Below, in pieces: positions 31,423-34,400 of a DNA stretch of 37,257 nucleotides; the first letter of the stretch is position 1; each line of letters starts with the position of its first letter. The stretch is taken from the NCBI GenBank assembly GCA_001275005.1, contig JWZX01003167.1, forward strand, positions 1 through 37,257, written 5' to 3'. A program made the translations under genes and the position numbers. The stretch is from Chrysochromulina tobinii. Taxonomy: Eukaryota. Under the pieces are notes generated by a model. That model did not search any database. It was not told where the DNA came from and saw only the letters and a program-made list of their open reading frames with translations.

Positions 31423-34400
31423 ATGCCGCCATCAAAGATGGTCAAATTTAGTTGGAAGGATACTACACTGCTTAACGCTCATAGCCCTGCTGTTCCATCG
31501 CAGCAACAAAGTGGCGCAACGCCCATGGGGGTTGCCATGGCACCATCGCCCATGGTCATGCAGCGGCAGCCGCAGACGTCTTTGGCTTCGCCAGAACTTC
31601 CAAGCGCGAGAGCATCTCCACCAGTACTTCAAGGCGCGCCAGCAGATTCATCGGATGCCTCCGTGCCGAGTTCCCGGTCCGGCATTCATCCACTTGTGGT
31701 GTCCGCGCTGGAAAAGTTCGGCATGACCGTTCGCAACACATCAGAGCCAATTATTCGGGAGGGTTTGGATAGGCATCAGGCGATGAAGGCGAGCCGCAGC
31801 CTGTCTAACGTGAGCTTCATTGAAGAGGTCGTTCGCCCGAATTCGATCACGGAGCTACCGGCCACAGCCGAGCTGCAGACCAAGGCTCCTTTGCACAACC
31901 TCGCTGAATTCAGGCGCATGGTTCAACTATCCGACGAGCTCGGGTTGTCGCTTCGTCGCAAGAGAACGTCCCCGGTCGACTGCCCGAGAGCAGGTGTGTT
32001 AGTGAGAGAGTCTGTGATACTGAATTACCTTCCTCCTTGTTACGTAAAACGCTCGATATACCTGAATGCCTGTGAGTGAGTGCGCGCGCCCACGCCCAAC
32101 GCCAAGCAGGTCACATCGACGACGAATCCGAAGCGGCCCGGGCCAGCCGGCCCAATCATCATGCCGGGGCGCTGGCGTGTGCGACTGGGCTGATGGTCAG
32201 CGGCATCAAGCTCCACACCCTTCTGTGCGAACTCAGCCGTCTCCTGGAGTTTGAGATCGGCGAGACCGGACCAGATGATGGGGCGTACCTGCCTGGGGGT
32301 GCGAAGCACGTGCCCATCAAGGACGCAGGCAAGACGACTCGGAATGACAGATGGAATAAGTGGCTGCCACACATGGGCAGAGCCGAGCGTGCGATTGGCA
32401 AACAGGATCACTCATGGCTGATGGCCACGGGCGTCGCGAACGCACTGTGCCCGAGTGGGCATGGCCAAGATGCACGCAAAAAGCTGGGCTTGGATCCGAA
32501 TACCTTTCTCCAAGTCTTGGTGTGGTCAAATGACGACGCCAGGGAACGTATCAAGCAGGAAATTGCAAAGGCCGAACGGAAAGACAATCACGTGGGTCAA
32601 TGTCTGACATTGAAGCGCGCTTCCAACTCCACGTTCGCGATCCTTGACGCGTACCGCCACATGTTCCTGATCAAGCATCCATCGCGGCGCGACATCATAG
32701 GCGAAGCGCGTCGCGTTCTAGCGATCCTGTACTCGTTGATGGGCGGTGGTGTGGCGTGGGAAAGCGTTCAGAATATCGAGGCAGCGCTGCTGCGCGCGGC
32801 AACGCAGGCGCACTTGGACGCCGAGCAAGCTGCCGAGGTTGAGGTTGAGCGATCGGATCGTGCGTACATACGCTTCTGCAAGGAGCGGAGGATCGACGCT
32901 GTCGTGGAGGCCCACAAACGCGGGCTCAGCGGCCGACTGTGGACGAAGGTCGCGGCCGAATGGTGGAATTCGTCGAAACTGATCGCTGCCACCGTACCTG
33001 CCAACAGACCACCTGAAGGAGAGCAAGAACAAGATGAGCACACGATGCCGGAGGCAGTGGGCATAGGCAGTTTGGGAGTTGATGCGATGGAGTGCGATGC
33101 GCCGGCGCCCGCGCCCGCGCCAGCAGCAGCATCGGCGCCCGCGCCCGCGCCAGCAGCAGAATCAGCCACAGCCGAAGCTGCAGCAGGTGCCACGGTCGAA
33201 GCTGCAGCAGCCACGGCCGAAGCAGCAGCAACAGCTGAGGCCAACGTTCAGAACGTTGGGGCGAGGCAGCAGCCAGCAGAAGAGCAGCCAGCGAGAGCAG
33301 ACACCGGGGGCGGCGGCGATGACGAGGATGGTACCGGAGCAATCTACAAGAAGGATGCATGGCATTTAAGCGGCTACTTGGGCGTCGAGGTGAAAAATGG
33401 CAAAGGTCTTCCGAAAAACACCAAAGTTGGCCCGTCCCTCCCCGACGACAGCCCCGCAAATGAGACCAATGGCACGAAGCGCGTCGCGTTTATCATGGAA
33501 CTACTGAAGACGGAAGCGCACCTTACTCGGGACCATGGCCGATTCGGCATGGCAGCATTCTATAACCTACTACTCCAATGTGAGGCACAAAACCTGAGCG
33601 AGGTGCATCTTATTGTCCGGCTCTATGCGACCGCCGCTCATCGTCAGGCGCTGGACGAGGATGGCAAGCCAGCGCCCGAACGCTGGGAACGGACAAAGCG
33701 CGCATATGAGCTCTACAAGAGCTTGGGGTTCACCAAGCTGTGTGGCCAGACGCGGCTATATCCTGAAGACAGTGACACACAGGAGTACATGTCAGTATCA
33801 ACGACCGTGCTCAAGGAGAGGCTCATGAATCAGTGCCGCGAGACGGATATCCCACGGGGCGGCGCCACCTTTGTGGTCCAGCCCCAGTGCCGTCTCACAG
33901 GCAAGGGTCGAAAGTGGTTTGAGCTCGAGGCCATCGACGCAATTGCCTTCGAGCATGACGCCGCCAACGGCGGCGACGGCGCGGACGTCAAGGAAGTGCT
34001 GCCCAGGGGGACTAACAAGTTCTCGTTGTTCTCCCTCGTGCCCACGCACGCGCCCGCGTTGCCTGTTGCCCCTGAAGTAGCCCGGGAGATGGTGGGGGAC
34101 ATCCTGCAGGCGGAGGACATGGGCGAGAGGTTCAACTATCAGCACGAGGTCAGGGTGGATGGCGATGGCAATGTAGGGCGGGTGTACCTGGACGCAGATG
34201 GTCAAAGGGAGGACCAGCAGGTGATCACTGACGGCGTCGAGCAGGAGACGGCATGCTCAGGCGGGGACACGGTGGATGAGTCGTGGGGCGCGACGGCGGC
34301 GCACGAAGTTATAAAGTACTTGCTGCTCGAGCGCCTCCGAGGCTGCGTCATCTTGCCCGTTGGCATCTCGGTGGATGGGAAGCGGAGTGTGAGCAAATCC

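What the first reader, a model, noticed from the sequence alone, without database searches (positions are those of the whole stretch)
33470..33800. GNAT acetyltransferase-like domain fused upstream of the transposase core
Seen: TRDHGRFGMAAFYNLLLQCEAQNLSEVHLIVRL...RAYELYKSLGFTKLCGQTRLYPEDSDTQEYMSV. Established: RimI-type GNATs show RxxGxG, a helix, VxLxV, AxxLYxxLGF and a terminal M-containing strand. Inference: an acetyltransferase (or dead reader) module built into a RAG1-like transposase, which could modify chromatin or the transposase itself, e.g. for anti-silencing or target access. I do not know this fusion from RAG1, RAG1L or Transib.
Basis: partly seen in the sequence, partly recalled or inferred. 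Interest (0 to 1): 0.72.

Follow-up and report, generated by a model that had tools for sequence, protein, structure and literature searches.

The report
Acetyltransferase fused to RAG1-like transposase
A repeated DNA element, likely a recently active transposon of a microalga, encodes a predicted RAG1-like transposase with a built-in, predicted acetyltransferase-fold domain; relatives carry it before or after the transposase core, so it is likely a working enzyme that would modify chromatin or the transposase itself.

Summary
The segment is real coding sequence and GNAT-like. It lies in a 1240-codon open frame. Its model matches GNAT acetyltransferases in 39 of 40 Foldseek rows, all weak. A family profile reaches P0089, which passes the Pfam GNAT cut-offs. 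The window protein itself has no Pfam hit, and its CoA loop is RDHGRFG, not RxxGxG.

The downstream core looks RAG1-like with a conserved D-D-E but lacks the CMCT zinc motifs. The element is at least 10.5 kb, at about 4 times flank depth.

Seven of 8 related transposases that reach this region keep the module by independent HMM. One relative (P0098) carries it at the C-terminus instead. Glu, Lys, Arg, Tyr and His positions are conserved across 40 sequences, which favours an active enzyme.

Only strands b3-b6 match GNATs in order. A C-terminal extension may be the permuted b1-a1-a2-b2 half, but sequence tests did not support that. Activity, substrate, sense-strand splicing and the right end are untested. 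No such fusion turned up in 10 literature searches.

The parts
30496..37257 (+). Left part of a repeated element of at least 10.5 kb. Left end starts CCTTGCATTT; it runs past the window end (to at least L001:13547).
   Evidence: Window and L001 share sequence from 30496 with different flanks, and L002 begins at exactly this base. Contig depth 167 vs 43.7 in X5 and 140 vs 38-39 in X10.
30692..31158 (.). Subterminal hairpin (117 bp arms, 94%); member of a high-copy repeat family
31423..31993 (+). Probable first coding exon (inferred; the donor could instead be at 32072)
   Evidence: ORF 31351-32079; frame-keeping GT..AG candidates 31994-32109 and 32072-32109; not seen in RNA
32193..32813 (+). 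Conserved N-terminal domain of the transposase
   Evidence: 26-55% identity to six full-length homologues
32853..32975 (+). HMG-box-like motif
   Evidence: Profile A6 hits the BBX HMG box (E 0.0074) and TFAM (E 0.13-0.4) in the PDB; no Pfam HMG hit
32976..33344 (+). Ala/Pro-rich, poorly conserved linker
33360..33800 (+). GNAT core b3-b4-a3-b5-a4-b6; conserved E 33498, K 33507, G 33537, G 33546, R 33618, T 33693, Y 33714
33801..34046 (+). C-terminal extension (helix, strand, helix, strand) with invariant His 33954 and GDGA; candidate permuted b1-a1-a2-b2 half
   Evidence: Secondary structure; H in 34 of 34 rows; not matched by VIA-align; permutation not supported by hhalign
34281..35660 (+). 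RAG1-like RNase H core: first D in SYDAA (34422-34436), second D in CLDGG (34917-34931), CILHCAMRTGE (35604-35636)
   Evidence: assignment of the catalytic residues to RAG1 positions is recalled
35661..35804 (+). Inferred phase-0 intron, GTGCGC...CGCAG
   Evidence: P0035, P0036, P0037 and P0038 run straight across this point; ends; not seen in RNA
35805..36887 (+). Last exon: helical insertion, WYDNECLY, catalytic E in SNEGMEAWQK (36324-36353), C-terminal tail
35384..37257 (-). Spliced antisense RNA over the 3' part of the transposase gene; GT-AG introns at about 35553-35629, 36291-36408 and 36510-36604/36608
   Evidence: CT..AC joints in 5 of 5 RNA runs and in neither of the 2 DNA runs

Best explanation
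The segment is a predicted GNAT-fold module inside the transposase of a likely recently active, RAG1-like DNA transposon, and it is likely a working acyl-CoA-dependent acetyltransferase that, tethered to the DNA-bound transposase, would acetylate nearby protein lysines, most likely chromatin at the element or its target, or the transposase itself. Shown: one open frame joining the HMG-like motif, linker, module and core; conservation of the module; a repeated element with two different flanks. Predicted: the GNAT and RAG1-like folds. Inferred: CoA binding, catalysis through the b4 Glu and a4 Tyr, the substrate, and a benefit in anti-silencing or target access. My odds: GNAT fold 0.95, active enzyme 0.6, protein or chromatin substrate if active 0.7.
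For: Fold: 39 of 40 Foldseek rows are GNAT acetyltransferases; 43 of 50 VIA rows carry acyltransferase, GNAT, Nat or Fem names; the family reaches the Pfam-positive P0089; hhalign E 5e-5 with 0 of 50 shuffles reaching it. Conserved polar residues in the 40-row alignment: b4 E 25 of 26, K 23 of 25, loop G 27 of 28 and 25 of 29, b5 R 31 of 34, a4 Y 23 of 31, H 34 of 34, D 32 of 36. Glu as general base and Tyr as general acid are common in GNATs (PMC4964394, passages). The strict P-loop survives in 5 of 26 relatives and G-x-G in 16 of 26. Position is not fixed: before the core here and in at least 13 related proteins, after a core-like region plus an Ala-rich linker in P0098 (core E 2e-10). That suits a tethered enzyme better than a fixed structural part. 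Module and core distances correlate (Spearman 0.80, 36 non-independent pairs). Precedent for transposon-borne chromatin enzymes: TET/JBP in fungal DNA transposons (PMC12730594, passages).
Against: No structural match reaches E 1e-3 and the best Z is 6.2, within the range the tool calls common; model pLDDT is 56.7. The window protein has no Pfam or NCBIfam GNAT hit; 30 of 31 new relatives have no Pfam GNAT hit above cut-off. The window's clade lacks the P-loop consensus and has Thr where the motif-B Asn is usual (Asn position recalled). VIA ranks 1, 6 and 7 are antizyme and NUDT6/7 N-terminal domains, recalled as truncated non-acetylating GNAT-like folds. The module diverges faster than the core. 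Nothing tested here points to histones specifically.
Confidence: 0.45

Rival explanations
1. The module is a catalytically dead GNAT fold used for binding DNA ends, nucleosomes or a partner, or for sensing acetyl-CoA.
For: Non-consensus, length-variable P-loop in the window's clade. Top VIA hit is antizyme, with NUDT N-terminal domains close behind. It sits just upstream of the core, where RAG1 and Transib have an end-binding NBD (PMC9435367, whole text).
Against: Near-invariant E, K, R, H and D; canonical P-loop in 5 of 26 relatives; C-terminal placement in P0098; a separate HMG-like motif is available for DNA binding.
Confidence: 0.3
2. It is an active acyltransferase, but it modifies nucleic acid or a small amine (a Mom-like DNA base modification marking or shielding the element).
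For: Transposon-borne DNA-modifying enzymes exist (TET/JBP). Relative P0075 joins the module to a region with an HxD...H pattern that resembles 2OG-Fe oxygenases (recalled resemblance). tRNA-acetylating GNAT toxins and polyamine acetyltransferases are among the fold hits.
Against: P0075 got no oxygenase hit in Pfam or the PDB. No Mom-like hit appeared among the rows shown in any search.
Confidence: 0.17
3. The GNAT likeness is a chance alpha/beta arrangement, or the segment is a passenger that is spliced out.
For: All structural scores are weak.
Against: Transitive link to Pfam GNAT, profile match above all shuffles, in-frame conservation in 7 of 8 full-length relatives, codon GC pattern like the core.
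Confidence: 0.04

Closest known systems
RAG1 / RAG1L / Transib (CMCT clade)
   Same: Core nearest to RAG1 by language-model features (8 of the 10 best named hits) and by Foldseek (ranks 1-2, E 0.1); conserved D, D, E and LH..MR motifs.
   Different: No C(2)C or H(3-4)H zinc motifs; left end CC rather than CA; HMG-like and GNAT modules instead of RING/NBD; no RAG2-like ORF recognised; no HMM-level match to RAG1.
GNAT acetyltransferases (RimI/Naa, PaiA, SpeG types)
   Same: b3-b4-a3-b5-a4-b6 topology, b4 Glu, LYxxLGF motif B.
   Different: N-terminal b1-a1-a2-b2 half not found upstream; conserved 80-residue C-terminal extension with invariant His and GDGA; loop G-x-x-G with an insertion; 12-20 residue insertion after b5.
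TET/JBP-carrying fungal DNA transposons (KDZ, Plavaka, ESTA, EnSpm)
   Same: A DNA transposon carrying an enzyme proposed to counter silencing (PMC12730594).
   Different: Those carry a separate dioxygenase gene acting on DNA; here a GNAT module is fused to the transposase.
HDP1/HDP2 Harbinger-derived proteins of Arabidopsis
   Same: Link between transposon proteins and a histone acetyltransferase complex for anti-silencing (PMC5339849, search listing and abstract start only).
   Different: Domesticated host proteins that join a host acetyltransferase; the element here encodes the GNAT module itself.

Membership tests
GNAT superfamily | b4-a3-b5-a4-b6 acyl-CoA-binding core fold | tested here: met
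   (weak scores, consistent family)
GNAT superfamily | Canonical order with b1-a1-a2-b2 N-terminal to b3 | tested here: inconclusive
   39 of 50 VIA rows start at chain residue 42 or later, and upstream lies a non-conserved linker. The C-terminal extension is unmatched; a permuted match is not supported by hhalign.
GNAT superfamily | P-loop Q/R-x-x-G-x-G/A | tested here: not met
   Absent in the window protein; present in 5 of 26 family rows, G-x-G in 16 of 26
GNAT superfamily | Candidate general base (Glu) and acid (Tyr) | tested here: met
   b4 E 25 of 26, a4 Y 23 of 31; sequence only
GNAT superfamily | Acyl-CoA-dependent acyl transfer | not testable with these tools
   needs an assay
CMCT clade (RAG1/Transib/EnSpm/Chapaev) | DDE RNase H core related to RAG1 | tested here: met
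   low-confidence model (pLDDT 45), no significant HMM match
CMCT clade (RAG1/Transib/EnSpm/Chapaev) | [quoted passage not shown] | tested here: not met
   ERCCAERPS not conserved; WYDNECLY in place of the His pair
CMCT clade (RAG1/Transib/EnSpm/Chapaev) | 5'-CA..TG-3' termini (most members) | tested here: not met
   Left boundary reads CCTTG; only one end seen
CMCT clade (RAG1/Transib/EnSpm/Chapaev) | Terminal inverted repeats and a 2-5 bp target duplication | tested here: inconclusive
   Right end not reached in L001 or L002
RAGL transposons | Linked RAG2-like gene | tested here: inconclusive
   Four other long ORFs of the element gave no kelch or RAG2 Pfam hit; element incomplete

The most novel reading that the evidence does not exclude
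An undescribed lineage of zinc-less RAG1-like transposases in microalgae carries its own circularly permuted GNAT enzyme, placed at either end of the transposase, that writes an acetyl mark on chromatin or DNA where the element binds: a transposase with a built-in epigenetic writer.
Probability: 0.3. Interest if true: 0.87.

Novelty: new variant of a known kind. Interest (0 to 1): 0.7.

Why it matters
In the anti-silencing cases found in the searches, transposons use separate proteins (VANC, TET/JBP) or join host acetyltransferase complexes. A transposase with its own acetyltransferase would couple chromatin modification directly to excision or integration, and it can be tested with one 230-residue domain. 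The family also widens the RAG1/Transib radiation with a zinc-less branch, and adds a GNAT family that Pfam misses and that may be permuted.

Tried and rejected
No whole genome is held.

Pfam, NCBIfam and PDB sequence searches of the window module gave nothing significant; the best GNAT hints were PaiA at E 0.046-0.11. Enterotoxin hits at E 0.06-0.9 were judged chance. The Atlas search of the module gave mixed first hits at 0.90-0.91, only some of them GNAT, so it is a lead only.

Circular permutation: the C-terminal extension against E. coli GNAT N-halves gave E 0.61 and 0.48 (44 of 60 and 9 of 50 shuffles reach the score). The global mode beat 50 of 50 shuffles, but at probability 0.1 and in the wrong register. 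An N-half HMM missed P0089. Complex prediction on the two halves gave no verdict (0.32 against a mark of 0.34).

P0039's segment was not found by leave-one-out HMM, so it is not counted. The 30 of 30 count is circular because the HMM held those clusters.

No RNA contig covered the module in 5 RNA runs; this shows neither expression nor silence. No relatives were found in viral contigs. No terminal inverted repeat was found in L001. VIA-align on the full-length model never ran because the queue was full.

Four look-ups in earlier scan findings were empty. The 'gnat' hits in the Crypton paper were 'gnathostomes'. The plasmid RimI search was not used.

Full report
OBSERVATION. The quoted residues lie in one 1240-codon open frame, 32076-35798(+); the other two plus frames of 33342-34070 hold 5 and 9 stops. 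The motif-B-like pattern occurs once in the window's six frames. Pfam finds nothing in the window protein.

THE ELEMENT. Window and L001 are 99.99% identical from 30496 onward with different left flanks, and L002 starts at that same base. In two DNA runs a single unbranched 6041-base contig covers the gene at depth 167 and 140, against 44 and 38-39 for flanking contigs, and the raised depth continues to at least L001:13547. The tool warns that depth is no copy number; I infer about four near-identical copies, hence recent activity, and a length of at least 10.5 kb. The right end was not reached. The host is a gene-dense eukaryote of about 60% GC; a microalga, probably a haptophyte, is my inference from intron style and gene content and comes from no call.

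THE TRANSPOSASE. A phase-0 intron at 35661-35804 is inferred because four homologues read straight across it; with a probable first exon the protein is about 1,700 residues. Three homologue searches gave 9 clusters. The core keeps D (SYDAA), D (CLDGG) and E (EGME) in every row that covers them. ESM Atlas features place it nearest RAG1 (8 of the 10 best named hits, scores about 0.90). A poor model of P0039 (pLDDT 45) has RAG1 at Foldseek ranks 1 and 2, E 0.1. HMM searches show no link to RAG1. The C(2)C and H(3-4)H motifs and CA termini that characterise the CMCT clade (PMC12730594, passages) are absent. It works like RAG1/Transib but is not filed as a member. An HMG-box-like motif precedes the linker (E 0.0074).

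THE MODULE IS GNAT. The AlphaFold model (pLDDT 56.7, 6 sequences) gives strand, strand, helix, strand, helix, strand, then helix, strand, helix, strand. Foldseek shows 39 of 40 rows as GNAT acetyltransferases, none at E 1e-3 or better; viral GNATs also lead in BFVD. VIA-align gives Z 6.2 (antizyme, rmsd 4.0, 92 aligned) and 5.7 (PA3270-CoA, rmsd 3.8, 108 aligned), with 43 of 50 rows named as acyltransferases; the tool cautions that Z under 8 is common. The sequence evidence is independent. A profile search of 1.84 billion proteins returned 32 hits. One of the 31 new ones, P0089 (E 1.1e-4, profile positions 50-208), passes three Pfam GNAT cut-offs. The enlarged profile aligns to the a3-b5-a4 region of 21 E. 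coli GNATs at E 5e-5, above 50 of 50 shuffles.

ANATOMY. Only b3-b6 match in order: 39 of 50 VIA rows begin at chain residue 42 or later, and 49 of 50 end by model residue 179. Upstream is a non-conserved linker; downstream is an 80-residue extension with an invariant His and GDGA. Its strand-helix-helix-strand pattern is what the missing b1-a1-a2-b2 half would look like (canonical order from PMC4964394, passages), and P0089 has IRFA at its start, as E. coli L005 has at its N-terminus (seen by eye). Profile tests did not support this, so permutation remains a hypothesis, about 0.5.

CONSERVATION AND PLACEMENT. Of 9 clusters, 8 extend upstream of the core. Seven keep the module by direct or leave-out HMM. 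P0039 has a similar element order in a low-confidence region but failed leave-one-out, and P0038 starts inside the core. Of the 31 new hits, 7 also carry this transposase's N-terminal domain or first core block; many others are fragments. P0098, a cluster-mate of P0085, has a core-like region first (E 2e-10) and the module at its C-terminus behind an Ala-rich linker. This is a single predicted protein, though P0116 shows a similar tail-linker-module order. Across 40 rows the b4 Glu, Lys, two loop Gly, b5 Arg, Thr, a4 Tyr, His and Asp are conserved. The strict P-loop is present in 5 of 26 rows but not in the window's clade.

MECHANISM. Shown: fusion, conservation, repeated element. Predicted: folds. 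Inferred: the transposase binds its ends, and the tethered module acetylates lysines nearby, keeping the element's chromatin open or easing target access; autoacetylation is possible. Position-independence and conserved polar residues favour catalysis (0.6). The altered loop and the antizyme/NUDT-like truncation keep a dead binder or acetyl-CoA sensor alive (0.3). A nucleic-acid substrate is not excluded.

NOVELTY. Ten full-text searches showed no GNAT-transposase fusion in their listings. Read: PMC9435367 whole text (no acetyltransferase domain mentioned); passages of PMC12730594 (0 hits for GNAT or acetyl), PMC5963040 (0 for Transib, GNAT), bioRxiv 2021.09.26.461848, PMC3212892 and PMC4964394; the rest as listings only. 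Supplements and Repbase were not seen, and subscription papers are missing from the library.

VERDICT. A real, conserved GNAT module in a divergent RAG1-like transposase: new variant of a known kind, interest 0.70.

Noticed in passing
window 35384-37257 (-): Spliced antisense RNA with GT-AG introns and alternative donors over the catalytic 3' exon, in 5 of 5 RNA runs laid; longest Met-started ORF about 160 codons. It may regulate the transposase.
   Followed up: partly
L001 10881-11606 (-) and 12723-13409 (-): The same element carries an AT-hook plus RING-like ORF and an acidic ORF with RanBP2-type zinc ribbons, all below Pfam cut-offs, plus two unannotated plus-strand ORFs.
   Followed up: partly
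window 30692-31158: 470-bp hairpin near the left end belongs to a high-copy repeat family (summed depth above 2000); one DNA joint links it in opposite orientation to L001:13592.
   Followed up: partly
P0075 / P0135: The GNAT module is joined to a region with an HxD...H pattern resembling TET/JBP-type oxygenases (recalled); no Pfam or PDB support.
   Followed up: partly
P0066: A family member has a CAP-Gly domain (E 2e-18) inserted upstream of the GNAT module.
   Followed up: no
window 29043-30218 (+): Single-copy host JmjC/cupin gene just left of the insertion.
   Followed up: no
window 24374-26131 (-): CDP-alcohol phosphatidyltransferase and cytidylyltransferase domains in one open frame.
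   Followed up: no
window 36898-36982: Two 40-base direct repeats just after the transposase stop codon.
   Followed up: no
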